IMG/VR virus record: IMGVR_UViG_2541047864_000006
Origin: a virus
Taxonomy: Duplodnaviria; Heunggongvirae; Uroviricota; Caudoviricetes
Reading direction: 5' to 3' (one strand)
Length of the DNA stretch: 46,863 nt
Positions 5,975 through 22,008 of the stretch are shown in pieces; within the stretch, counting starts at the first letter, position 1; each line of letters opens with the position of its first letter. The position numbers and the translations under genes were made by a program. The notes beneath the pieces are model-generated. The model searched no databases, was not told the origin of the DNA, and saw only the letters and a list, made by a program, of their open reading frames with translations.

Positions 5975-6570
5975 TTTGCTGCTCCTCATCATATCGACCC
6001 TGCAAGGTCGGTTGGTTTCTCCACAAAACAGAGAAGAACACCTGCGGTGGCAGCCGCCCGGATGGATTGGGTTATGAGCCTGTCGTCCGGTGATGCTCTT
6101 CTCTGTTTTGTAAAAAGAGCGGTACCAGCCGGAAGCAAGTGTACAAACTGGTACCGCCAAAGCAGTGGCTGTTGTGGTGGGGTTGTCACTCAGGCGTATG
6201 GTCAACCTGACAATCCGGTGTCCTCAACGGGGAAAGAGTAACCCCGCCATACTTACCGCCGCGCCATTTCGCGGATTACCACAACGCTGAGAGCACTTAG
6301 CCAGTTACGGCACCACACTTTGTCGCGGCTCCATAAATGCCCTCATCGTTGCACCCTGGTCTCTTCCCAGGCGTCAAACCGGATCGCCACGCTGGTTAGG
6401 CGTCTTATCAGCATCATCATTGACTTGCACATTCCGGCTACCTGGTTTGTTTGCCCGAGCAAGAAGTGGATTGTCCCCTTTAACGTCCCCAGACCGCTAA
6501 CGACGCATGTGCCATACGCCGTGTTACAACCAAATTTTGTTTGAATCTTGCCTGCCTCATGTTTCTTTTG

Positions 6571-6642: not shown

Positions 6643-7317
6643 TTAGGCCTTTATTGTGTATCTTCTTGGTTTTCCCGAGAAAATCACTGTACCAATTATA
6701 GAGCAATTACCGTTAATCTTAATGTAAGGCTCAGGCCAGTTTGGGTTTAATGCTTTGAGATAACGCTGTGTTCCATCTTCTATCAATCGCTTGAAGGTGG
6801 TTTCGCCTGTATCGTGCATCAATGCAATAACGTCGTCACCGTGGCAGGCAGGGACTTCGGGATCAACAAAAATCATGTCTCCAGGGCGGTACTCATCAAT
6901 CATTGAATCACCAATCACCCGCAAGATATAAGTCATTTCGCCACAGGGTACAGGGCAGGGATACGTTTCTGCTGTGCTCAAATCAACCTCAGAATAGCCA
7001 ACTTCTTTCCATGCTCCGGCCTGTACCCATGATATGACAGGGACTAACGTTATTTGTTTGTTAGTGATTGAAACATCAGGTTTTTTTGTGATGTTCGTTG
7101 TCTGGTGTTCTTGATCAAGCCATCCGACAGGCAGGTCGAAACATTTTTCGATGTGCCGTGCCATGCTGTCACCGATATTTTTAGTAGCGCCATCCCCCAT
7201 AAACCTGCTGGTTTGGGTTGGCTCGCGATCAATCATGGTGGCAAAGGATGAATTTCCGCCAACACCATCTCTCAGTTTTCTGGCGTTAGACCGCCGGATG
7301 TCATGGATTGTTTTCAT
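6643..7317 (-). CDS. CI-type prophage repressor (N-terminal HTH, C-terminal S24 LexA-like autopeptidase)
   Basis: 224 aa; C-terminal GDSM (Ser nucleophile) and FKRL (Lys) motifs of S24 peptidases; divergent from cro. Confidence 0.85.
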   Translation of the reverse strand: MKTIHDIRRSNARKLRDGVGGNSSFATMIDREPTQTSRFMGDGATKNIGDSMARHIEKCFDLPVGWLDQEHQTTNITKKPDVSITNKQITLVPVISWVQAGAWKEVGYSEVDLSTAETYPCPVPCGEMTYILRVIGDSMIDEYRPGDMIFVDPEVPACHGDDVIALMHDTGETTFKRLIEDGTQRYLKALNPNWPEPYIKINGNCSIIGTVIFSGKPRRYTIKA

Positions 7318-7639: not shown

Positions 7640-8203
7640 ATGAGGCTAACCGTGGGTAAGTATCACTGGAAAGTAGAAAAACAGCCTGAGTGGTACGTGA
7701 AAGCTGTCAGAAAAACTATCGCAGCGTTGCCGGGTGGTTACGCTGAAGCAGCTGACTGGCTGGATGTAACAGAGAACGCATTATTTAACCGCCTTCGTGC
7801 CGATGGCGATCAGATTTTCCCGCTGGGATGGGCAATGGTTTTACAGCGCGCGGCTGGCACTCACTACATTGCGGATGCTGTCGCACAGTCTGCTGGTGGG
7901 GTGTTCGTATCGCTTCCTGAAATTGAGGAAGTAGAGAACGCCGATATAAACCAGCGCCTGCTGGAAGTCATCGAACAGATCGGGAATTACTCAAAGCAGA
8001 TTCGTTCGGCAATCGAAGATGGGGTCGTGGAGCCACACGAGCAGACAGCAATTAATGATGAGTTGTATCTGTCAATTTCGAAGCTCCAAGAGCATGCAGC
8101 ACTGGTCTACAAAATCTTTTGCGCTCCAGAAAAGAGTGACGCCCGCGAGTGTGCAGCTCCGGGCGTCGTGGCGTTTTGTGTCTGTGGAGAAACTAACGCA
8201 TGA
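7640..8203 (+). CDS. Hypothetical early regulatory protein (CII/YdaT/YmfL-like position)
   Basis: 187-aa ORF first after cro; possible alternative GTG start at 7652 with GAGG SD. Confidence 0.5.
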   Translation: MRLTVGKYHWKVEKQPEWYVKAVRKTIAALPGGYAEAADWLDVTENALFNRLRADGDQIFPLGWAMVLQRAAGTHYIADAVAQSAGGVFVSLPEIEEVENADINQRLLEVIEQIGNYSKQIRSAIEDGVVEPHEQTAINDELYLSISKLQEHAALVYKIFCAPEKSDARECAAPGVVAFCVCGETNA

Positions 8204-9036
8204 ACAGTTTAACGGCAAATAACCGTTTGTCGCAACAGCTGGTGGTCAGTGTCGCTGAACACCTGTTGTTACGGCATGAATGCAGATTACCAAATTACCT
8301 GGCTGTAAGTAACCACAGAGAACTTTACCTGACTGTGGGGGGCGAGTTGTGCGGGAACTTAACCGCTGGTTTCGTGACGGAAGAGGGCTTTATGTCCATG
8401 TTATTCGTTGGGAACCAGAAACACAGCGCGTTATCTATCTTCGCAAAGACTACCCGCATGAGTGCTTTAGTCCTTTGTGGAAATTCAGGCGTGATTTTGT
8501 TGAGTGTGAAGGACCACCAGCACATTGATTCTGCCATTCCGGGACGTTACACTGTTCAGGCACCTTATAAAGCGGGTGACGGGATTGGCGTCCTGGAAAT
8601 GTTATCGGCGATATATGACGCGCCAGCGTCTTTTTTATCGTCTGCGTCTGTGCACACCCAAATTATGGTGGGCTGGACGGGGGCACCGAAAGGTGCGCCG
8701 GTTTCCGATAACGCCGGTTACGCCAACCCCGTTCAGTTCACCACCAGCGAAATTGGCGTTTCCGGTGGTGAAGGTAATTCACTGTTATCGGAGGCTGCCA
8801 TCATGGCTACTGTCCCAGCCCTCACTCGTCTGAATGATGAAGACTTACATAAACTCAGTTATGTAACAACTGCACTACGTGCTCTGCGCAAGGTAACTCT
8901 TTCGGATCCGCAGGCGCATCAGGTTTTGGTAGAAACCCTTCTTAACTTGCAGGCTGAACGTATTCGTCTGGCGGATAAGGCTAATTTTCATATTCACCGT
9001 CTCCTGAATATCAGCGGAGGGCATCGTCATGCTTAA
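8200..9036 (+). CDS. Hypothetical protein
   Basis: 278-aa ORF, ATGA overlap with upstream gene. Confidence 0.5.
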   Translation: MNSLTANNRLSQQLVVSVAEHLLLRHECRLPNYLAVSNHRELYLTVGGELCGNLTAGFVTEEGFMSMLFVGNQKHSALSIFAKTTRMSALVLCGNSGVILLSVKDHQHIDSAIPGRYTVQAPYKAGDGIGVLEMLSAIYDAPASFLSSASVHTQIMVGWTGAPKGAPVSDNAGYANPVQFTTSEIGVSGGEGNSLLSEAAIMATVPALTRLNDEDLHKLSYVTTALRALRKVTLSDPQAHQVLVETLLNLQAERIRLADKANFHIHRLLNISGGHRHA

Positions 9037-9265
9037 TCCGTTGATCCTCAATATTTGCCGTTTGCTTCAGCGTAAAAAAACATCAATTCCTACAGTTGGG
9101 CAGTGGTACACCACGCCTGCAGGGCATGTTCTACGTGTTAGCCTGGTTGACCGTGAATGTCAGAAGGTGATTTGTGAACCGCTGGGCCGTAATTACCGCA
9201 TCAGTATGCCGCTTATAGCCTTTTGCTCCGGAAAAAACATGAAGCATCTCGGAGGTGCAGCATGA
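9029..9265 (+). CDS. Hypothetical small protein
   Basis: 78-aa ORF, start overlaps upstream stop, end overlaps downstream start. Confidence 0.4.
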   Translation: MLNPLILNICRLLQRKKTSIPTVGQWYTTPAGHVLRVSLVDRECQKVICEPLGRNYRISMPLIAFCSGKNMKHLGGAA

Positions 9266-10080
9266 GTATGGAGCTGATGGTTAAAGCGATGAAAATTCGA
9301 GTGGGTAATCCATTGCGAAAACTGGTTCTGATCAAGCTGGCTGATAATGCCAGCGATCAGGGTGAGTGCTGGCCCAGCTACCAGCATATTGCTGACCAGT
9401 GCGAGATTAGCAAACGTTCTGTGATGAATCATATTGCGGCCCTTTGTGATTCCGGGCTGGTAAAAAAAGTCACCCGGAAAGGTGAAAAAGGTAACTCAAG
9501 TAATATCTATCTCCTTCATCTTGATGGTGCAGGAGATTCACTAGGGGGTAGTGCAAATAATTCACTATCTGGTGCAGCAAATTCACCAGGTAGTGCAGGA
9601 GTTGCACCAGGGGGTGGTGCAGGAGATTCACCCAGAACCAGTCACTCTTTTGAACCAGTCAAAGAACCAGTCAATGAACCAATAGCTGTTGGTGCATCTG
9701 CTGATGAGTCTGTGCGAGTTCGTTCAAACCGACCGGAATACTCTCCGGAGTTTGAGCAGGCATGGCTGGCATACCCCAAACGTGCTGGTGGCAATTCAAA
9801 ATCTGCAGCCTTCAAAGCCTGGAAAGCCCGTTTGAATGAGGGGGTAAAACCCGAAACCATGCTGGAAGGTGTGAAACGCTACGCGGGCTGGGTATCTGCG
9901 ATGGGTAACAGCGGCACACAATTTGTGAAACAGGCTGTCACGTTCTTTGGTCCGGATCGTCATTTCGAAGAATCCTGGGAAGTTCCTGCGGTATCTGCAG
10001 CCAGACGCGAGGACCCGTACTTCAAAGCCAGTTACGACAACGTGGACTACAGCCAGATCCCGGCAGGATTCAGGGGATAA
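9262..10080 (+). CDS. Putative replication initiator (N-terminal winged-helix, internal iterons)
   Basis: 272 aa from ATG 9262 (GGAGGTG SD); N-terminal HTH-like region; gene body contains five direct repeats, analogous to lambda ori within O. Confidence 0.6.
   Translation: MSMELMVKAMKIRVGNPLRKLVLIKLADNASDQGECWPSYQHIADQCEISKRSVMNHIAALCDSGLVKKVTRKGEKGNSSNIYLLHLDGAGDSLGGSANNSLSGAANSPGSAGVAPGGGAGDSPRTSHSFEPVKEPVNEPIAVGASADESVRVRSNRPEYSPEFEQAWLAYPKRAGGNSKSAAFKAWKARLNEGVKPETMLEGVKRYAGWVSAMGNSGTQFVKQAVTFFGPDRHFEESWEVPAVSAARREDPYFKASYDNVDYSQIPAGFRG
9526..9631. repeat. Five ~16-bp iterons (GGTGCAGGAGATTCAC-like) at 21-24-bp spacing; putative origin of replication
   Basis: Iteron starts at 9526, 9550, 9571, 9592, 9616; followed by three GAACCAGTCA direct repeats at 9635-9673. 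Confidence 0.55.
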
Positions 10081-10082
10081 TC

Positions 10083-10571
10083 ATGAGTCTTTTGAATGAA
10101 GTTCAGAAATTCATTGAAGCCCATCCGGGGTGTACTTCCGGAGACATTGCGGATGCTTTTGCAGGTTACTCACGGCAGCGCGTTCTGCAGTCTGCAAGCA
10201 AGTTACGTCAGAGTGGGCGTGTGGCTCACCGTTGTGAAGGATATACACGCAGACATTTCCCGCGCCTGACTGAGAGAGCGCAGGAGCCGGAACCACAACC
10301 AGTTCGTGAAACCAGACCTGTGCGCAATTTCTATGTCGGCACTAACGATCCCCGGGTGATTTTGTGCCTGACCCGCCAGGCTGAAGAACTGGAGTCCAGG
10401 GGCTTATACCGTCGTGCTGCAACCGTGTGGATGGCGGCATTCCGTGAAAGCCACTCCCAGCCAGAACGAAACAATTTTCTGGCACGTCGTGAGCGGTGCT
10501 TACGGAAAAGCAGCAAGCGCGCTGTATCGGGTGATGAGTGGTATCTGTCAGGGAATTACGTGGGGGCTTAA
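10083..10571 (+). CDS. Putative transcriptional regulator with PerC-like C-terminal region
   Basis: 162 aa; motif AEELESRGLYRRAATVWMAAF resembles the conserved PerC/Pch core (recall). Confidence 0.45.
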   Translation: MSLLNEVQKFIEAHPGCTSGDIADAFAGYSRQRVLQSASKLRQSGRVAHRCEGYTRRHFPRLTERAQEPEPQPVRETRPVRNFYVGTNDPRVILCLTRQAEELESRGLYRRAATVWMAAFRESHSQPERNNFLARRERCLRKSSKRAVSGDEWYLSGNYVGA

Positions 10572-11224
10572 TGAGTAATAAATATTGCCAGGAGCTGGTG
10601 GAGCTGCGGAACAAACCAGCCCATGAACTGAAGGAAGTGGGCGATCAGTGGCGCACGCCGGATAACATTTTCTGGGGAATTAACACCCTGTTTGGCCCGT
10701 TTGTCCTGGATCTGTTTACTGACGGTGATAACGCCAAATGTACCGCGTATTACACGGCGGAAGACAACGCGCTGGCGCATGACTGGTCAGAACGTCTTGC
10801 GGAGCTTAAAGGTGCTGCCTTTGGTAATCCCCCATACAGCCGCGCCAGTCAGCATGAGGGGCAATACATCACCGGCATGCGTTACATCATGAAACATGCC
10901 AGTGCCATGCGTGATAAAGGCGGGCGCTATGTTTTCCTGATCAAAGCTGCCACCAGCGAAGTGTGGTGGCCGGAAGATGCAGATCATATTGCTTTTATTC
11001 GCGGGCGTATTGGTTTTGAACTGCCTGCCTGGTTTATCCCGAAAGATGAGAAGCAGGTGCCGACAGGCGCTTTCTTCGCTGGTGCTATTGCTGTTTTCGA
11101 CAAGACCTGGAAGGGACCGGCAATCAGCTACATCGGGCGCGATGAACTTGAGGCATGTGGTGAGGCGTTTCTGGCGCAGGTTCGCCAGCAGGCGGAAAAA
11201 CTGGTCAGGGAGATGGCGGCATGA
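10571..11224 (+). CDS. Phage DNA N6-adenine methyltransferase
   Basis: 217 aa from ATG 10571 (TAATG overlap); catalytic NPPY motif (AFGNPPYS). Confidence 0.8.
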   Translation: MSNKYCQELVELRNKPAHELKEVGDQWRTPDNIFWGINTLFGPFVLDLFTDGDNAKCTAYYTAEDNALAHDWSERLAELKGAAFGNPPYSRASQHEGQYITGMRYIMKHASAMRDKGGRYVFLIKAATSEVWWPEDADHIAFIRGRIGFELPAWFIPKDEKQVPTGAFFAGAIAVFDKTWKGPAISYIGRDELEACGEAFLAQVRQQAEKLVREMAA

Positions 11225-11547
11225 CGACTTTAACTCAATGCCAGCAGCAGGTGCTGGATATGCTGATTTCTTATCAGAAAGAACGTGGCTTCCCGCCAAC
11301 CAATCAGGAGGTGGCAACCATGCTGGGATACCGTTCAGTGAATGCAGCGGTGGAGCATCTTCGCGCACTGGAGAAAAAAGGCGTCATCACGATAAAGCGT
11401 GGTGTGGCCCGGGGGATCACGCTTCATACCGTGGTGAAGGACGACGACAGCGAGGCGGTCGGGATTATCCGCTCACTGCTTGCCGGTGAGGAAAACGCCA
11501 GGCTGCGTGCAGCCCACTGGTTACATGAGAGGGGCCTGAAAGTATGA
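11221..11547 (+). CDS. LexA N-terminal DNA-binding-domain paralog lacking the S24 peptidase domain
   Basis: 108 aa; clear similarity to the E. coli LexA N-terminal domain including the recognition-helix segment RSxNAAxEHL. Confidence 0.75.
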   Translation: MTTLTQCQQQVLDMLISYQKERGFPPTNQEVATMLGYRSVNAAVEHLRALEKKGVITIKRGVARGITLHTVVKDDDSEAVGIIRSLLAGEENARLRAAHWLHERGLKV

Positions 11548-11939
11548 AGCTGATCCTGCCTTTTCCGCCCAGCGTGAACACGTACTGGCGACACCCCAAC
11601 AAAGGGGCGTTTGCTGGTAAGAGCCTGATAAGCGCGGCGGGGCGAAAATTCCAGAGCGCGGCGTGTGCAGCAATAGTTGAGCAGTTACGTCGTCTGCCAA
11701 AACCAACGTCGGCACCTGCTTCAGTGGAGATCGTGTTGTTTCCTCCGGATAACCGGATCCGCGATCTGGACAACTATAACAAGGCGCTGTTTGACGCCCT
11801 GACCCACGCGGGTGTGTGGGAAGACGACAGTCAGGTGAAAAGAATGCTGGTGGAGTGGGGACCGGTTATCCCGGAGGGGAAGGTCGAGATCACTATCAGT
11901 AAGTACGAAAAAGCGAGTTGCAAATTAGCAACTCGGTAA
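11544..11939 (+). CDS. rusA: RusA Holliday-junction resolvase
   Basis: 131 aa; N-terminal LPFPPSVNTYWRH and DLDNYNKALFDALT motifs characteristic of RusA. Confidence 0.85.
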   Translation: MKLILPFPPSVNTYWRHPNKGAFAGKSLISAAGRKFQSAACAAIVEQLRRLPKPTSAPASVEIVLFPPDNRIRDLDNYNKALFDALTHAGVWEDDSQVKRMLVEWGPVIPEGKVEITISKYEKASCKLATR

Positions 11940-11984
11940 CGGAATTGAGCAACACCCTAAATTTGGGTATTACCTCGTTAAAGA

Positions 11985-12004
11985 TACTGTATTTATGAAC
12001 AGTG
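11985..12004. promoter_or_regulatory. LexA (SOS) box TACTGT-N8-ACAGTG upstream of KilA-N gene
   Basis: CTGT(11987-11990)-ATTTATGA-ACAG(11999-12002), matching CTGT-N8-ACAG consensus; ~100 nt upstream of ATG 12102. Confidence 0.6.
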
Positions 12005-12101
12005 TATCCTTGATAACTATTAAAAATCGCAGTAAGTTCATCCTGCATCAACGAAAAGGGAGTGCAGTCCCGCTCGTGGATAAAAATTTGTGGAGAAACC
12101 A

Positions 12102-12917
12102 ATGAATCAGTTGCTTGTAATTGATGGCGTTTCTGTGCGCCAGTACTTCGAATCTAACTACTGTCTTAACGACCTTCAGAAAGCTGCTCTTCTTGCCGCT
12201 GGTGAGAATCGCTCCTCCCGTTCGCTGGAAGTTCACGAGTTTATGCGTCGTCCTGAAACGAAGGCTCTTGTGGAATTATTGGAAGAAGAAACTACGGGAG
12301 ATTCCCGTAGTATTCCTGTCATCACCATTCAGGGGCGCAATGGTGGGACGTATGTCTGTAAAGAGCTGGTCTATGCATATGCAATGTGGATCAGCCCGGC
12401 ATTCAGCTTAAAAGTGATACGTACTTTTGATGCGCTTCATAATTCATCACCAGAAGAAACCACATCCGACAAAATTAAATCCGGGGTCATTCTGCTTGAA
12501 TCAGCAGCAAAGACTCTAAATCTGTCAAACTCCTCGAAACTTGGTGCATACCAGAAATTATCAAAGGTAGCTGGTCTTCCTGAACTTATGCCGATCTATG
12601 CCATTGATGCACCTGCTGATGCGCCAGATGGTTCAAGCCGCCCTACGCTGTCGCTGAGTGCACTGCTGAAGCAGTATGGTATCCGCCTGACGGCTAATCA
12701 GGCATATCACCAGATGGCGAAGCTGGGGATCGTTGAACAACGCGAACGATACAGTCGTACCGCGATTAACAACATCAAAAAATTCTGGTCGCTGACCGCG
12801 AAAGGCTGCATGTTCGGCAAGAACATCACCAGTCCTGCAAATCCGCGCGAGACGCAGCCGCATTTCTTCGAATCCCGATTCCCTGAGCTGTTAAAGCTGC
12901 TCGATACCGTTCATTGA
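12102..12917 (+). CDS. KilA-N domain protein (antirepressor-like)
   Basis: 271 aa from ATG 12102 (GGAG SD 6 nt upstream); N-terminal KilA-N/APSES-like region (GTYVCKELVYAYAMWISPAF). Confidence 0.7.
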   Translation: MNQLLVIDGVSVRQYFESNYCLNDLQKAALLAAGENRSSRSLEVHEFMRRPETKALVELLEEETTGDSRSIPVITIQGRNGGTYVCKELVYAYAMWISPAFSLKVIRTFDALHNSSPEETTSDKIKSGVILLESAAKTLNLSNSSKLGAYQKLSKVAGLPELMPIYAIDAPADAPDGSSRPTLSLSALLKQYGIRLTANQAYHQMAKLGIVEQRERYSRTAINNIKKFWSLTAKGCMFGKNITSPANPRETQPHFFESRFPELLKLLDTVH

Positions 12918-12918
12918 G

Positions 12919-13914
12919 GTGACCGTGAGAGCACTACTGACCCCTGAAATTGCCCCGCGTATGGGGATCGTATTGTTCAGACCAGGTTCAGAGCTGATGC
13001 CCTTGTTTATGCAGGGGCGTGTCCTGCTGGAGCCTGAGCCGGAACGTTATTCATCTTTCGCCAGTGGTGCCGTTCCGGCGGCATCACAACCGCTGGCGGA
13101 TGATCCTGCCGTTCGGGCCGTGTTCCGCAATGAGGCAGTGATCCGTCGTGCTGGTGGCGTGGAATGTCTTGAAAGCTGGTTACTTCGTGAAAAAGGCTGC
13201 CAGTGGCCTCATTCCGACTGGCACAGCGAGAATATGACAACAATGCGACACGCTCCGGGCGCAATCCGTCTGTGCTGGCACTGCGATAACCAGCTGCGCG
13301 ATCAGTTCACGGAACGGCTGGAATCAATGGCAACGGATAACTGTGCCCGCTGGGTGTTGTCTGTTGTGCGTCGGGATCTCGGTTTTGATGACAGTCATGT
13401 TGTGACAATGCAGGAACTGTGCTGGTGGCTGATTCGTAATGATCTGGCGGATGCCTTACCGGAAAGTGCAGCCCGTAAGGCACTGAGATTACCGAAGCCT
13501 GTTGTGCCGTCTGTTACCCGGGAAAGTGACCTTGTGCCTTCGGTTCCTGCCACCAGCATCATCCAGGATAAGGCGAAAAAGGTGCTGGCGCTGAAAGTGG
13601 ATCCGGAGTCGCCGGAGTCTTTTATGTTACGCCCAAAACGTCACCGCTGGGTTAATGAAAAGTACACGCGCTGGGTTAAGACGCAGCCGTGCGCATGTTG
13701 TGGAAAACCTGCTGATGATCCCCACCACCTGATAGGCCACGGTCAGGGGGGAATGGGTACAAAAGCGCATGACCTTTTTGTGTTGCCTTTGTGCAGAAAG
13801 CATCACGACGAGCTGCATGCGGATACCGTGGCATTTGAAGAGAAGTATGGCTCCCAGCTGGAGCTGATATTTCGTTTTATCGATCGTGCGCTGGCAATAG
13901 GCGTACTGGCGTAA
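12919..13914 (+). CDS. DUF968-like protein with C-terminal Cys/His zinc-binding (HNH-like) region
   Basis: 331 aa, GTG start; C-terminus CACCGKPADDPHHLIGH...CRKHHDELH; position just upstream of Q as in Qin ydfU (recall). Confidence 0.6.
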   Translation: MTVRALLTPEIAPRMGIVLFRPGSELMPLFMQGRVLLEPEPERYSSFASGAVPAASQPLADDPAVRAVFRNEAVIRRAGGVECLESWLLREKGCQWPHSDWHSENMTTMRHAPGAIRLCWHCDNQLRDQFTERLESMATDNCARWVLSVVRRDLGFDDSHVVTMQELCWWLIRNDLADALPESAARKALRLPKPVVPSVTRESDLVPSVPATSIIQDKAKKVLALKVDPESPESFMLRPKRHRWVNEKYTRWVKTQPCACCGKPADDPHHLIGHGQGGMGTKAHDLFVLPLCRKHHDELHADTVAFEEKYGSQLELIFRFIDRALAIGVLA

Positions 13915-13927
13915 GTGGAGAACGAGC

Positions 13928-14680
13928 ATGAACCTTGAAGCCTTACCAAAATATTACTCCCCAAAATCTCCAAAATTGAGTGATGACGCACCGGCGACAG
14001 GCTCTGGTGGTTTAACGATTACGGATGTGATGGCTGCGCAGGGGATGGTGCAATCGAAAGCACCGCTTGGGTTTGCCTTATTCCTGGCAAAAGTTGGTGT
14101 TCAGGATCCTCAGTTTGCGATTGAAGGTCTGCTCAATTACGCGATGGCACTGGATAACCCGACATTGAATAAATTGAGTGAAGAAACCCGGCTACAGATT
14201 ATTCCTTACCTTGTGAATTTTGCCTTTGCTGATTATTCCAGGTCTGCGGCAAGTAAGGCTCGTTGTGAGCATTGTGCTGGTACTGGATTTCATAATGTAT
14301 TGCGCGAAGTGGTGAAACACTCCAGAAGCGGGGAATCTGTTATCAAAGAAGAGTGGGTGAAGGAACTATGTCAGCATTGCCATGGTAAGGGAGAAGTCAG
14401 CACAGCGTGCAGAGGGTGTAAGGGTAAAGGTATTGTCCTGGATGAAAAAAGGACCCGGCTTCATGGCACACCTGTTTATAAGATTTGTGGGCGTTGCAAT
14501 GGAAAACGGTTTAGTCGTTTACCAACCACACTGGCGCGGCATCATGTCCAGAAGCTGGTACCGGACCTGAGTGATTATCAGTGGTATAAAGGATATGCAA
14601 ATGTCATTGATAAACTGGTTACAAAGTGCTGGCAGGAGGAATCTTACGCTGAAGCACAATTGAGAAAGGTGACGAGATAA
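13928..14680 (+). CDS. Late-gene antiterminator Q
   Basis: 250 aa; multiple CxxC zinc-finger motifs; immediately upstream of pR'-tR' module. Confidence 0.75.
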   Translation: MNLEALPKYYSPKSPKLSDDAPATGSGGLTITDVMAAQGMVQSKAPLGFALFLAKVGVQDPQFAIEGLLNYAMALDNPTLNKLSEETRLQIIPYLVNFAFADYSRSAASKARCEHCAGTGFHNVLREVVKHSRSGESVIKEEWVKELCQHCHGKGEVSTACRGCKGKGIVLDEKRTRLHGTPVYKICGRCNGKRFSRLPTTLARHHVQKLVPDLSDYQWYKGYANVIDKLVTKCWQEESYAEAQLRKVTR

Positions 14681-15315: not shown

Positions 15316-15614
15316 AAAATTCCTTAATACTGATAACTTGGCGCACTATACACACGTTCCTGAAGAAAGCTATAGTTTTTTGATGGGGTTGAAGATGGCT
15401 GGATGTCTAAAATAAACATTGCTTCATATGTTCAACTATGCGTTAATGATTGCGTCGGTTTGAAGAACAGACGATATACGAAGTAGTTTACTAAAGCAGT
15501 TCTCATTTCAGGTGTTATTCACTTATTCCTTCTTTGAGTCTCTCCAATTAAGTACGAAGTCGTTTCTGTTATACAAGCCATTTATGCCGAAAGGCTCAAG
15601 TTAAGGAATGTAGA

Positions 15615-15830
15615 ATGTCAAATAAAATGACTGGTTTAGTAAAATGGTTTAACGCTGATAAAGGTTTTGGCTTTATTTCTCCTGTTGATGGTAGTAAAGA
15701 TGTGTTTGTGCATTTTTCTGCGATTCAGAATGATAATTATCGAACCTTATTTGAAGGTCAAAAGGTTACCTTCTCTGTAGAGAGTGGTGCTAAAGGTCCT
15801 GCAGCAGCAAATGTCATAATTACTGATTAA
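15615..15830 (+). CDS. cspB: Cold-shock protein, CspB-like
   Basis: 71 aa; near-identical to E. coli CspB by recall ([21 protein letters not shown]); long AT-rich 5' leader; divergent from cspF. Confidence 0.9.
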
Positions 15831-16112
15831 AATTCATAGTTTGTCTGTATACGATAACGAAGAAGGCTGATGCCTGAGTGGAGATACAGACAGAGTGGTG
15901 AATATTGGATCTCTTTAATAAATAGTAAGGAGGTCCAATACATGAAACAATGGCCAGCATATTTGGCAATAACTTAATCAGGAAAAGTATGCTAACCATT
16001 GTGGTGAAGTGCAGGTTTGCTGCATGAATAGTTTTACAGCAGAAGCTAACTGCTGGCATAGCAAAACAAAGTGCGTAAGTGGATGACTCCCACAAAAAGT
16101 ACCACAATATTA

Positions 16113-18703: not shown

Positions 18704-19066
18704 ATTAATATTAAATCGGATTATTTTTAGCGCTGAATGTGAAATTTAAATAAAAAGGACTCTTCCATGAGTCAAAATCCTTGAAATCTTAAGGGTAAGA
18801 TAAAAGGTCATTAGACAGAATGACACGTTTTATTAATAAATAAAGCTATTGTTTCATTCGTGTGTTTTTCTTTACAAAAGTAATCCTTGCTATGGTTGGT
18901 TAATCATGCGTTAATGGTGTTCTGGTTTGTTACAAAATTATCTGAAGCAGTCATTGTTATAAATTTATTATTTGTACCTCTTGAGATTTCCTTGTTGGTT
19001 TTTCTCTCTGATATTTTTTTTCGGACCATTCTGCCCAAGGGCTAACTTCTTCAAAAGGTAATAATG

Positions 19067-19279
19067 ATGTCTAACAAAATGACTGGTTTAGTGAAATGGT
19101 TTAACCCTGAAAAAGGTTTTGGTTTCATCACGCCGAAAGATGGTAGCAAAGATGTGTTTGTCCATTTCTCAGCTATTCAGAGCAACGATTTCAAAACGTT
19201 AACTGAGAATCAGGAAGTCGAATTTGGTATTGAGAACGGACCTAAAGGCCCCGCGGCTGTTCATGTAGTGGCACTTTGA
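19067..19279 (+). CDS. cspI: Cold-shock protein, CspI-like
   Basis: 70 aa; matches E. coli CspI by recall ([45 protein letters not shown]). Confidence 0.9.
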
Positions 19280-19478
19280 GGTAGAAAATATTACAAACCA
19301 TATTCACTTTAGATGCCCGTGTTGCCATGGTTCTCAGTATAGAACATCATCTTTTGATGTTTCTGACAGGAATCCTTTCGGGGCAAAATGTATCTTTTGT
19401 AAATCAATGATGATTACATTTGATAATATTTCACAATACTTAAATGTTAGCCGTCTGTCGTTAGATTTAAGAAAGTGA
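19269..19478 (+). pseudogene. Zinc-ribbon ORF (CPCC...CIFC) lacking an in-frame ATG/GTG/TTG start; possible pseudogene or non-canonical start
   Basis: 69-codon open frame directly after cspI; first in-frame ATG only at 19407. Confidence 0.35.
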
Positions 19479-21501: not shown

Positions 21502-22008
21502 ATGGCCTTTTTATTGAATAAAAGTGATATGGCCTCCTCCATCGGTATCTCTGTTCAGGCATTTGATAAATGGGGCGTTCCTCCTGTCGAGCGTCGGGGG
21601 AGGGAAGTTTTTTATGACGTTAAAACTGTACTGGAGATAGATCGCGAGCGGCGACAACACAATCATAGAACACCTGATGACGGGGGCGATCTGGAGGAAA
21701 GGCTGCTTCGGGCCAGAGCTGAACTGACAGAAGAACAGGCCGTAGCTCAAAAACTTAAAAATCAGGTAACCGAAGGTAAGCTCATCGATTCAGACTTCTG
21801 CGTTTTCGCCCTCAGCAAGCTGGCGATGGCATTGTCCAGTACGCTTGATTCTATTCCGTTATCCATGCAGCGACAGTTCCCGGATTTAACGCCACGTCAT
21901 CTTGACCATCTGAAAACCCTTATTGCGAAGGGCGCAAATCAGTGTGCGCGGGCAGGGGATAAATTACCGGATTTGCTGGATGAATATATCAGAGCAACAA
22001 CTGAATAA
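21502..22008 (+). CDS. nu1: Terminase small subunit (Nu1-like)
   Basis: 168 aa from ATG 21502 (GGAGAGGAG SD); C-terminal half resembles lambda Nu1. Confidence 0.85.
   Translation: MAFLLNKSDMASSIGISVQAFDKWGVPPVERRGREVFYDVKTVLEIDRERRQHNHRTPDDGGDLEERLLRARAELTEEQAVAQKLKNQVTEGKLIDSDFCVFALSKLAMALSSTLDSIPLSMQRQFPDLTPRHLDHLKTLIAKGANQCARAGDKLPDLLDEYIRATTE

What the first reader, a model, noticed from the sequence alone, without database searches (positions are those of the whole stretch)
11221..12917. SOS-wired module: non-cleavable LexA DNA-binding-domain paralog, consensus LexA box, and KilA-N antirepressor-like gene
A 108-aa protein is clearly similar to the LexA N-terminal domain but lacks the autoprotease domain. 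Downstream, a near-consensus SOS box (CTGT-N8-ACAG, 11985-12004) precedes a KilA-N gene of antirepressor type. The phage may use host LexA, its own uncleavable LexA mimic, or both to gate an antirepressor, separate from CI autocleavage.
Basis: partly seen in the sequence, partly recalled or inferred. Interest (0 to 1): 0.6.

Follow-up and report, generated by a model that had tools for sequence, protein, structure and literature searches.

The report
SOS box upstream of prophage KilA-N gene
A lambda-like E. coli/Shigella prophage carries a strong binding site for the host DNA-damage repressor LexA in front of a DNA-binding (KilA-N) gene, and separately encodes a very common uncleavable copy of LexA's DNA-binding domain; there is no evidence that the KilA-N protein is an antirepressor or that the three parts form one unit.

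Summary
All three sequence features are real. ORF 11221-11547 is a LexA DNA-binding domain with no protease domain. 11985-12004 is a high-scoring SOS box and the only such site in the window. 12102-12917 is a KilA-N gene.

They are not a co-inherited module. RusA (11544-11939) lies between the paralog and the box. The paralog is translationally coupled inside the early dam-lexA-like-rusA operon and occurs in 2233 of 5426 complete E. coli genomes. The box-bearing spacer occurs in only 185, always with one KilA-N allele.

The box sits on or next to two promoter-like sites. LexA-like palindromes recur at the same place in orthologous loci of other genera, so LexA control of KilA-N is likely. LexA control may extend to the tightly packed DUF968 and Q genes downstream.

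The antirepressor reading is not supported:
- The protein has an APSES-like KilA-N domain plus a winged-helix-like C-terminal domain.
- It has no ANT/KilAC domain and no similarity to 186 Tum or P22 Ant.
- The phage CI has a complete self-cleaving S24 domain.
- Most orthologues lack any box.

The paralog's function is untested. It keeps four of LexA's five DNA-contact residues.

Verdict: a new LexA-controlled prophage promoter with unusual cargo, of moderate interest.

The parts
6643..7317 (-). CI repressor with a complete S24 self-cleavage domain (context: argues against a need for an antirepressor)
   Evidence: Peptidase_S24 E 1.5e-26 over residues 93-212. The translation shows VQAG (Ala-Gly), GDSM (Ser) and FKRL (Lys).
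10571..11224 (+). Dam-type N6-adenine methyltransferase; its stop overlaps the start of the LexA-like gene (ATGA)
   Evidence: PF05869 E 1.2e-45; sequence.
11221..11547 (+). LexA DNA-binding-domain paralog: winged HTH (residues 1-69), a linker, then a conserved two-helix tail (74-103). No S24 protease domain.
   Evidence: PF01726 E 2.9e-19. LexA structures hit at E about 1e-15. AF2 mean pLDDT 80 with H6-22, H28-35, H40-52, two strands, H74-87, H93-103. S39, N41, A42 and E45 are kept; E44 is V.
11544..11939 (+). RusA Holliday-junction resolvase, translationally coupled to the LexA-like gene (start overlaps its stop)
   Evidence: PF05866 E 6.4e-15; sequence.
11914..11935 (-). Hairpin at the rusA 3' end followed by CTTTTT on the minus strand only (terminator-like). 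Not present in the orthologous rusA ends compared in the alignment or in L007/L009.
   Evidence: Terminator scan; alignment of intergenic regions.
11963..11990 (+). Promoter candidate P1: TTGGGT-16 nt-TACTGT, with the -10 being the first six bases of the SOS box. This is the arrangement annotated for p95 of phage 186.
   Evidence: Promoter matrix score 6.46, 99.89th percentile of the window. 186 p95 is TTCACA-18-TACTGT with the LexA site starting at the -10.
11985..12004 (.). SOS (LexA) box TACTGTATTTATGAACAGTG
   Evidence: 22.3 bits, the only site above 11 bits in 46.9 kb. SfIV has TACTGTATTTATGAACAGTA at 24.2 bits. Present with 46 of 46 copies of this KilA-N allele in viral contigs, one of them mutated to 16 bits.
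12010..12038 (+). Promoter candidate P2: TTGATA-17 nt-TAAGTT, beginning 5 nt after the box. The -35 and -10 are conserved in homologous spacers of other genera.
   Evidence: Score 11.4, 99.997th percentile; window maximum 13.6. TTGA.. and TAA.GT are conserved in L132, L133, L134, L006 and L004.
12058..12071 (+). Leader hairpin GGGA-GTGCAG-TCCC, 31-44 nt upstream of the ATG. The loop is conserved and the stem covaries across genera.
   Evidence: 21 of 37 distinct upstream regions have a hairpin with this loop motif, with 14 different stems; background is 0.034 per 80 nt. Stem position 4 is A-T, C-G or G-C.
12102..12917 (+). KilA-N protein (271 aa): APSES-like KilA-N domain (1-114), helical linker, and a C-terminal alpha/beta winged-helix-like domain (181-266)
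12919..13914 (+). DUF968/YdfU HNH-type protein; starts 2 nt after the KilA-N stop and follows KilA-N in most loci that hold a full-length orthologue
   Evidence: PF06147 E 5.2e-81; tblastn across loci.
13928..14680 (+). Q antiterminator, 13 nt after DUF968. The scan flags only weak terminator-like sites inside coding sequence between the box and Q.
   Evidence: PF03589 E 1.5e-53; terminator scan; sequence.

Best explanation
This is the distal early ('nin') region of an SfIV/PhiR49_1-type lambdoid prophage. A 160-bp spacer between rusA and a KilA-N gene carries a host-LexA operator on or next to one or two sigma-70 promoters.

In the lysogen LexA keeps this promoter shut. DNA damage destroys LexA and allows CI-independent transcription of KilA-N, and probably of the abutting DUF968 and Q genes. 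This adds to ordinary read-through from the early promoter once CI has cleaved itself.

KilA-N is a two-domain DNA-binding protein with a lytic-phase role, not an antirepressor. The LexA-domain paralog is a separate, very common delayed-early gene of the dam-lexA-like-rusA block and is an accidental neighbour of the box. Its most likely activity is binding CTGT-type half-sites when host LexA has been cleaved.

Shown: the sequence features, their distribution and their conservation. Inferred: LexA binding, promoter activity, co-transcription with Q, and the activities of both proteins.
For: - Box quality and uniqueness. SfIV, an inducible phage, has an even better box at 24.2 bits.
- The box's first six bases, TACTGT, can act as a -10 with TTGGGT 16 nt upstream. 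That is the arrangement annotated for the SOS promoter p95 of phage 186.
- The best promoter-like site of the region, TTGATA-17-TAAGTT, starts 5 nt after the box. Its hexamers are conserved in homologous spacers from Raoultella, Kluyvera and other viral contigs.
- LexA-like palindromes of 12 bits or more lie within 250 nt upstream of KilA-N orthologues in 7 of 40 distinct loci, against about 0.55 expected. In L026, L011, L008 and L023 they overlap the predicted -10 or the spacer.
- The box is strictly linked to this KilA-N allele, 46 of 46 copies.
- KilA-N, DUF968 and Q are separated by 1 and 13 nt with no convincing terminator between them.
- CI is of the self-cleaving type.
- The KilA-N fold is APSES plus winged helix.
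- The paralog is coupled to dam and rusA by overlapping codons. Its distribution is independent of the box.
- The position, an SOS promoter embedded downstream of the replication genes and preceded by a palindrome, parallels the Gifsy LexA locus (PMC3121763).
Against: - No experimental datum exists for LexA binding or damage induction.
- For the best-scoring promoter the box lies upstream of the -35 (about -61 to -41). This is not the usual occluding position.
- The promoter with the box-embedded -10 has a weak -35.
- In related spacers the left half-site has decayed: 14, 12 or under 1 bits in L133, L132 and L004. Selection on the box is therefore not universal.
- Most orthologues (Stx2 phages, SfII, mEp460) have no spacer and no box.
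- Rho-dependent termination before Q cannot be excluded.
- The LexA matrix was built from boxes recalled from memory.
Confidence: 0.6

Rival explanations
1. One reading: the KilA-N protein is a LexA-gated antirepressor. It would inactivate this phage's CI, or the repressor of a co-resident prophage, as in Gifsy phages, 186 and N15.
For: A strong LexA box lies upstream. The position outside the immunity region and downstream of the replication genes resembles the Gifsy SOS locus. Fels-1 shows that a phage with a cleavable CI can still carry an antirepressor that acts on another prophage (PMC3121763).
Against: - No ANT/KilAC, P22_AR or DinI/Tum domains.
- BLASTP against 186 Tum, 186 Orf97 and P22 Ant finds nothing.
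- The protein has 271 aa and two DNA-binding-type folds. Known LexA-gated antirepressors are small repressor-binding proteins.
- CI has Ala-Gly, Ser and Lys.
- Most orthologues are expressed only from the early operon, after the repressor is already gone.
Confidence: 0.1
2. LexA bound at 11985-12004 acts mainly as a roadblock to early-operon transcription coming through rusA. Expression of KilA-N, DUF968 and Q would then need both CI inactivation and LexA depletion, an AND gate on late-gene activation.
For: The box lies inside a single-direction operon, 45 nt after the rusA stop and upstream of the -35 of the best promoter-like site. Q lies downstream with no terminator between.
Against: A roadblock would also hinder lytic growth after infection of undamaged cells. 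Conserved -35 and -10 hexamers just downstream argue that a promoter is the selected feature. In other genera the palindrome overlaps the -10 or the spacer of a strong promoter-like site.
Confidence: 0.12
3. The box is the operator of the phage's own LexA-domain paralog rather than of host LexA. The paralog shuts off KilA-N, DUF968 and Q, or a leftward transcript, during lytic growth.
For: The paralog keeps S39, N41, A42 and E45 of LexA's five DNA-contact residues. It is encoded 440 nt upstream. Related phages with the paralog also carry very strong SOS boxes elsewhere: inside cI in SfII and Stx2a_1447, and at a late methylase gene.
Against: The paralog is about 12 times more widespread than the box. 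Boxes occur upstream of orthologues in loci with no paralog within 4 kb: L026, L011, L010, L012. The paralog has no LexA dimerisation domain, so its affinity for a palindrome is unknown.
Confidence: 0.15
4. The box is a fortuitous or decaying palindrome with no regulatory role.
For: Homologous spacers show loss of the left half-site. The exact spacer is nearly invariant among E. coli, so its conservation there is uninformative.
Against: At 22-24 bits it is the only site above 11 bits in the window, and shuffles never reach it. Upstream palindromes are enriched more than tenfold across genera.
Confidence: 0.08

Closest known systems
LexA-controlled SOS locus of Salmonella Gifsy prophages (dinI-gfoA/gftA-irsA; Lemire et al. 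2011, PMC3121763)
   Same: A LexA box with its own promoter is embedded in the rightward early region downstream of the replication genes. It lies outside the immunity region and is preceded by a palindrome.
   Different: The cargo there is a DinI homologue plus a small antirepressor, and the Gifsy repressors lack a cleavage domain. Here the cargo is a 271-aa KilA-N DNA-binding protein (plus DUF968 and Q) and CI is self-cleaving.
p95-tum-orf97 SOS operon of coliphage 186
   Same: The LexA box begins with TACTGT, which doubles as the -10 hexamer. The same hexamer and a TTG-type -35 at 16 nt are present here.
   Different: Tum (DinI-like, 146 aa) and Orf97 show no similarity to the KilA-N protein. 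186 CI is not RecA-cleavable (own knowledge), whereas this CI has an S24 domain.
E. coli LexA and its N-terminal cleavage fragment (residues 1-84)
   Same: The paralog has the same winged-HTH fold and 44% identity. The recognition helix RSVNAAVEHLRAL compares with RSPNAAEEHLKAL in LexA.
   Different: There is no S24 domain and so no LexA-type dimer interface or self-cleavage. A conserved two-helix tail takes its place. The Ala-Gly at 88-89 is not conserved in homologues (G to N or K).
P1 KilA / P22 Ant type 'antirepressor' annotations
   Same: It shares the N-terminal KilA-N (APSES-like) domain with P1 KilA (Pfam PF04383; the P1 architecture is own knowledge).
   Different: It lacks the KilAC/ANT and P22_AR domains that define the antirepressor families. 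Its C-terminus is winged-helix-like instead.

Membership tests
SOS regulon member (LexA-repressed gene) | 20-nt operator matching TACTGT(AT)4ACAGTA with a score in the range of proven boxes | tested here: met
   22.3 bits; the 22 training boxes span 12.5-27.1 bits. It is the only site above 11 bits in the window.
SOS regulon member (LexA-repressed gene) | Operator overlaps or abuts a functional promoter of the gene | tested here: inconclusive
   Two promoter-like sites were found: TTGGGT-16-TACTGT, with its -10 inside the box, and TTGATA-17-TAAGTT, 5 nt downstream. The second is conserved. No transcription start data are available.
SOS regulon member (LexA-repressed gene) | LexA binding and DNA-damage-inducible, lexA(Ind-)-blocked transcription | not testable with these tools
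   Needs EMSA or ChIP and RNA measurements. No paper found.
LexA repressor (TIGR00498 equivalog) | N-terminal winged-HTH LexA DNA-binding domain | tested here: met
   PF01726 matched over 1-65 of 65 positions, E 2.9e-19; PDB LexA hits.
LexA repressor (TIGR00498 equivalog) | C-terminal S24 peptidase/dimerisation domain with the Ser119/Lys156 dyad | tested here: not met
   The protein ends at residue 108. It scores 71 bits against the 110.95 cutoff and only model positions 1-91 are matched.
LexA repressor (TIGR00498 equivalog) | Conserved Ala-Gly cleavage site | tested here: not met
   LLAGE is present here, but the Gly is N or K in several homologues.
LexA-gated antirepressor systems (186 Tum, N15 AntC, Gifsy GfoA/GftA) | Cognate prophage repressor lacks the self-cleavage domain | tested here: not met
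   CI has Peptidase_S24 (E 1.5e-26) with VQAG, GDSM and FKRL motifs.
LexA-gated antirepressor systems (186 Tum, N15 AntC, Gifsy GfoA/GftA) | Gene product related to a known antirepressor family | tested here: not met
   No similarity to Tum, Orf97 or P22 Ant. No ANT, P22_AR or DinI Pfam hits.
LexA-gated antirepressor systems (186 Tum, N15 AntC, Gifsy GfoA/GftA) | Product binds the repressor and releases it from DNA | not testable with these tools
   Requires a protein interaction or induction assay.
KilA-N domain proteins (PF04383, APSES-like fold) | KilA-N domain by sequence and fold | tested here: met

The most novel reading that the evidence does not exclude
The 108-aa LexA-domain protein is found in about 41% of complete E. 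coli genomes and is always in the early lytic operon. It could be an uncleavable LexA mimic that dimerises through its two-helix tail. It would re-occupy SOS boxes once RecA* has destroyed host LexA. That would re-silence host SOS genes, the phage's own SOS-controlled promoters (KilA-N here; the cI-internal and methylase boxes in relatives), and the LexA-gated antirepressors of rival prophages.
Probability: 0.2. Interest if true: 0.75.

Novelty: new variant of a known kind. Interest (0 to 1): 0.42.

Why it matters
LexA-controlled promoters inside prophages are the known route by which non-cleavable repressors are linked to DNA damage. Here the same wiring sits in a phage whose CI can cleave itself, and it drives a DNA-binding KilA-N protein and possibly the late-gene activator Q.

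If the promoter does reach Q, DNA damage could start late (lysis) gene expression independently of CI. The KilA-N, DUF968 and Q genes lie in the same order in Stx2-converting phages, but the Stx2 phages examined here lack the box.

Separately, an uncharacterised uncleavable LexA DNA-binding protein carried by about 40% of sequenced E. coli could modulate the SOS response during prophage induction. Both ideas can be tested directly with standard reporters and EMSA.

Tried and rejected
- **Literature.** Searches combining KilA-N, LexA, antirepressor, SfIV, LexA box and phage-encoded LexA domain found no paper on this locus or on the paralog.
- **Antirepressor homology.** Pfam at E up to 1 on the C-terminal half, PHROGs, NCBIfam and PADLOC gave only KilA-N or 'transcriptional regulator' labels, plus a partial PDC-S22 hit. 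Pairwise BLASTP with 186 Tum, 186 Orf97 and P22 Ant was negative.
- **Paralog as a trans-cleavable LexA substrate.** The Ala-Gly is not conserved, so this was dropped.
- **Co-evolving triad.** Rejected on distribution: 2233 genomes against 185, and boxes without the paralog.
- **Rfam.** Nothing in 11850-12200, even at E up to 5.
- **Minus-strand small RNA.** I considered a LexA-controlled RNA running from the box to the terminator-like hairpin at 11935-11914. The promoter score is weak (6.3) and one natural variant breaks the stem without compensation. It is left as a remark only.
- **Consensus promoter scanner.** It found nothing at the box because TAAGTT has only 3 of 6 matches. A weighted matrix was used instead.
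Full report
**What is there**

The window is a lambdoid prophage almost identical to Escherichia phage PhiR49_1 (99.7% over 11100-13000). It is closely related to the Shigella serotype-converting phage SfIV (98.9%). The rightward early operon reads as follows:

| Gene | Coordinates / note |
|---|---|
| cro, CII-like, Ash-type ORF | upstream part of the operon |
| O-like replication protein | 9223-10080 |
| PerC/YfdN | 10083-10571 |
| Dam methylase | 10571-11224 |
| LexA-domain protein | 11221-11547 |
| RusA | 11544-11939 |
| non-coding spacer | 162 nt |
| KilA-N protein | 12102-12917 |
| DUF968/YdfU | 12919-13914 |
| Q antiterminator | 13928-14680 |

**The LexA-domain paralog**

- The 108-aa protein matches the whole Pfam LexA_DNA_bind model (E 2.9e-19).
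- It aligns to E. coli LexA residues 2-69 at 44% identity.
- It falls below the NCBIfam lexA cutoff because only model positions 1-91 are matched. There is no S24 protease/dimerisation domain, so it cannot self-cleave.
- AlphaFold2 (pLDDT 80) gives the LexA-type winged helix-turn-helix, a floppy linker (residues 71-75), and two well-predicted helices (74-87 and 93-103) that are conserved in homologues.
- LexA has five DNA-contacting residues: Ser39, Asn41, Ala42, Glu44 and Glu45 (PMC3091678). Four are retained and Glu44 is Val. Recognition of CTGT-like half-sites is therefore plausible but unproven.
- The 'LLAGE' that aligns with LexA's VAAGE cleavage site is not conserved as Ala-Gly (Gly becomes Asn or Lys). 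I do not think it is a cleavage substrate.
- Its start overlaps the dam stop and its stop overlaps the rusA start. It belongs to the early lytic operon and is probably not made in the lysogen. This is inference.
- The gene is extremely common, in 2233 of 5426 complete E. coli genomes. In every listed full-length hit rusA is annotated next to it, with dam or yfdN on the other side.
- I found no paper on it.

**The SOS box**

TACTGTATTTATGAACAGTG (11985-12004) has both CTGT and ACAG half-sites. A symmetrised matrix from 22 E. coli SOS boxes, recalled from memory, scores it 22.3 bits. That is inside the upper half of the training set. The next site in the window scores 11.0, and 50 shuffles reached at most 19.6. 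SfIV has a one-base variant scoring 24.2.

The spacer that carries the box is much rarer than the paralog. It is in 185 of 5426 E. coli genomes and five phage records. In viral contigs it accompanies all 46 copies of this particular KilA-N allele, though one copy carries a box mutated to 16 bits. The 69-70% identical allele found in Stx2 phages, SfII and mEp460 has rusA running straight into KilA-N, with no spacer and no box.

**Is the box functional?**

Three lines of indirect evidence say probably yes.

1. *Promoters.* The best sigma-70-like site of the region, TTGATA-17-TAAGTT (12010-12038), is in the top 0.003% of the window and starts 5 nt after the box. A second candidate, TTGGGT-16-TACTGT, uses the first six bases of the box as its -10. 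That is exactly the arrangement annotated for the SOS promoter p95 of coliphage 186 (TTCACA-18-TACTGT).
2. *Conserved spacers.* The spacers of several diverged loci are alignable: viral contigs L132-L134, Raoultella L006 and Kluyvera L004. They keep the TTGA -35, the TAA.GT -10, a leader hairpin and the Shine-Dalgarno sequence. A CTG/GTG-N10-CAG palindrome sits at the same position, with strength falling from 22 to 14, 13.7, 12 and then nothing.
3. *Other genera.* In more distant genera the spacers are not alignable. Yet LexA-like palindromes again lie 71-165 nt upstream of the orthologue: Edwardsiella 18.9, Erwinia 17.3, Serratia 14.9, Pantoea 13.0 and Rosenbergiella 12.8 bits. Several overlap the -10 or spacer of a strong promoter-like site. 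Seven of 40 distinct loci have a site of 12 bits or more in the 250 nt upstream, where about 0.55 is expected from the frequency in all loci.

Against: the left half-site has decayed in some relatives, most orthologues have no box, and nothing has been measured.

**What the promoter would drive**

KilA-N, DUF968 and Q are separated by 1 and 13 nt. I see no convincing intrinsic terminator between them. A LexA-controlled start here could therefore reach Q. That would give DNA damage a CI-independent path to late-gene activation. This is inference, and Rho-dependent termination is possible.

**Is KilA-N an antirepressor?**

I find no support.

- Only the N-terminal KilA-N domain is detected. The C-terminal 155 residues hit nothing in Pfam even at E up to 1, and in particular not the ANT/KilAC or P22_AR domains.
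- BLASTP against 186 Tum, 186 Orf97 and P22 Ant is negative.
- The phage CI has a full S24 domain with VQAG, GDSM and FKRL. It can therefore respond to RecA* on its own.
- Most orthologues are expressed only from the early operon, after the repressor has gone. The family's core role is thus a lytic-phase one.
- It is followed by the DUF968 HNH-type protein in most loci that hold a full-length orthologue. A DNA-transaction or regulatory role is my best guess.
- The antirepressor model remains possible in trans on other prophages, as with Fels-1 FsoA. I give it about 0.1.

**Are the three parts one module?**

No. The paralog is about twelve times more widespread than the box. Boxes occur upstream of orthologues in loci with no paralog within 4 kb. 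The paralog-rusA pair is a fixed block, whereas the spacer travels with one KilA-N allele.

One observation keeps a looser link alive. Related phages that carry the paralog also carry very strong SOS boxes elsewhere. There is a 27.1-bit box inside the cI coding sequence of SfII and Stx2a_1447. There are 22.6-23.6-bit boxes at the start of a late-region DNA methylase gene in Stx2a_1447 and mEp460. A phage-made uncleavable LexA domain that re-occupies such sites after host LexA is destroyed is the most novel reading left open. I put it at about 0.2.

**Comparison with known systems**

By position and logic, the nearest analogues are the Gifsy dinI-antirepressor SOS locus (PMC3121763) and the 186 p95-tum operon. 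The differences are threefold. The cargo here is a KilA-N DNA-binding protein, with possibly DUF968 and Q. A self-cleaving CI is present. A LexA-domain gene lies nearby. It fails the membership tests for a LexA-gated antirepressor system on two tested features: repressor type and antirepressor homology. It passes the sequence test for an SOS operator.

**Verdict**

This is most likely a LexA-controlled promoter feeding the distal early genes of an SfIV-type prophage, next to an independent and very common LexA-domain gene of unknown function. It is a new variant of a known kind of wiring. Interest is moderate (0.42), resting mostly on the uncharacterised paralog and the possible LexA-to-Q shortcut.

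Noticed in passing
window 12058-12071 and orthologous loci (L007, L009, L011, L003, L012, L016, L025, L031 and others): A short hairpin with a conserved loop, (G/T)TGCAG, or T(G/A)TACGG and ATGCGG in Morganellaceae, lies 29-50 nt upstream of the KilA-N start codon. It is found in 21 of 37 distinct loci with 14 different stems that covary, against a background of 0.034 per 80 nt. It is present even where rusA abuts KilA-N and there is no promoter, and is preceded by an invariant CGAA. No Rfam family matches it. It is a candidate leader RNA (or DNA) element controlling KilA-N.
   Followed up: partly
window 8450-9040 (isrK 8560-8636; C4 antisense RNA 8661-8748): Rfam gathering-score hits to isrK and the P1/P7-type C4 antisense RNA lie inside the long ORF 8200-9036, whose C-terminal part is Ash family. 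The same DNA is annotated 'putative antirepressor' in phage 2H10 and 'immunity region' in SfV, and is absent from SfII and SfIV. If this phage has an antirepressor-type module, this RNA-controlled insert is a better candidate than KilA-N.
   Followed up: partly
L084 (SfII) 2567-2586; L166 (Stx2a_1447) 6408-6427; L009 371-390; L007 270-289: A near-perfect SOS box (TACTGTTTTTATATACAGTA, 27.1 bits) lies inside the cI coding sequence of SfII and of the Stx2a-converting phage 1447. The same box, or a 23.8-bit variant, lies at a similar distance upstream of KilA-N in L009 and L007, where no gene annotation was checked. The cI allele of this window has no such box.
   Followed up: no
L166 15934-15953; L167 39700-39719; L004 7156; L012 6951; L031 6460: Strong SOS boxes (22.6-23.6 bits, for example TACTGTAAAAATAAACAGTG) sit right at the start codon of a roughly 350-aa ORF. 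In Stx2a_1447 and mEp460 this ORF is annotated as a DNA methylase in the late region, downstream of Q. In Stx2a_1447 it lies just upstream of the tRNAs and stx2.
   Followed up: no
window 11914-11935: The last codons of this rusA allele form an 8-bp hairpin followed by CTTTTT on the minus strand only, so it is terminator-like for leftward transcription. Together with a weak leftward promoter whose -10 (TACAGT) lies in the SOS box, it could define a LexA-controlled antisense RNA of about 75 nt. The evidence is weak.
   Followed up: partly
window 15454-15893 and 18920-19325: There are two full-length matches to the cspA thermoregulator RNA (157 and 113 bits). These indicate cold-shock-protein genes in the late region, as in the Qin prophage (own knowledge).
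   Followed up: no
L167 (mEp460) 21688-21735: Two adjacent SOS boxes (23.2 and 21.4 bits) lie just upstream of a dinI-like gene next to the integrase gene. This is a further LexA-controlled accessory gene in a phage that carries the LexA-domain paralog.
   Followed up: no
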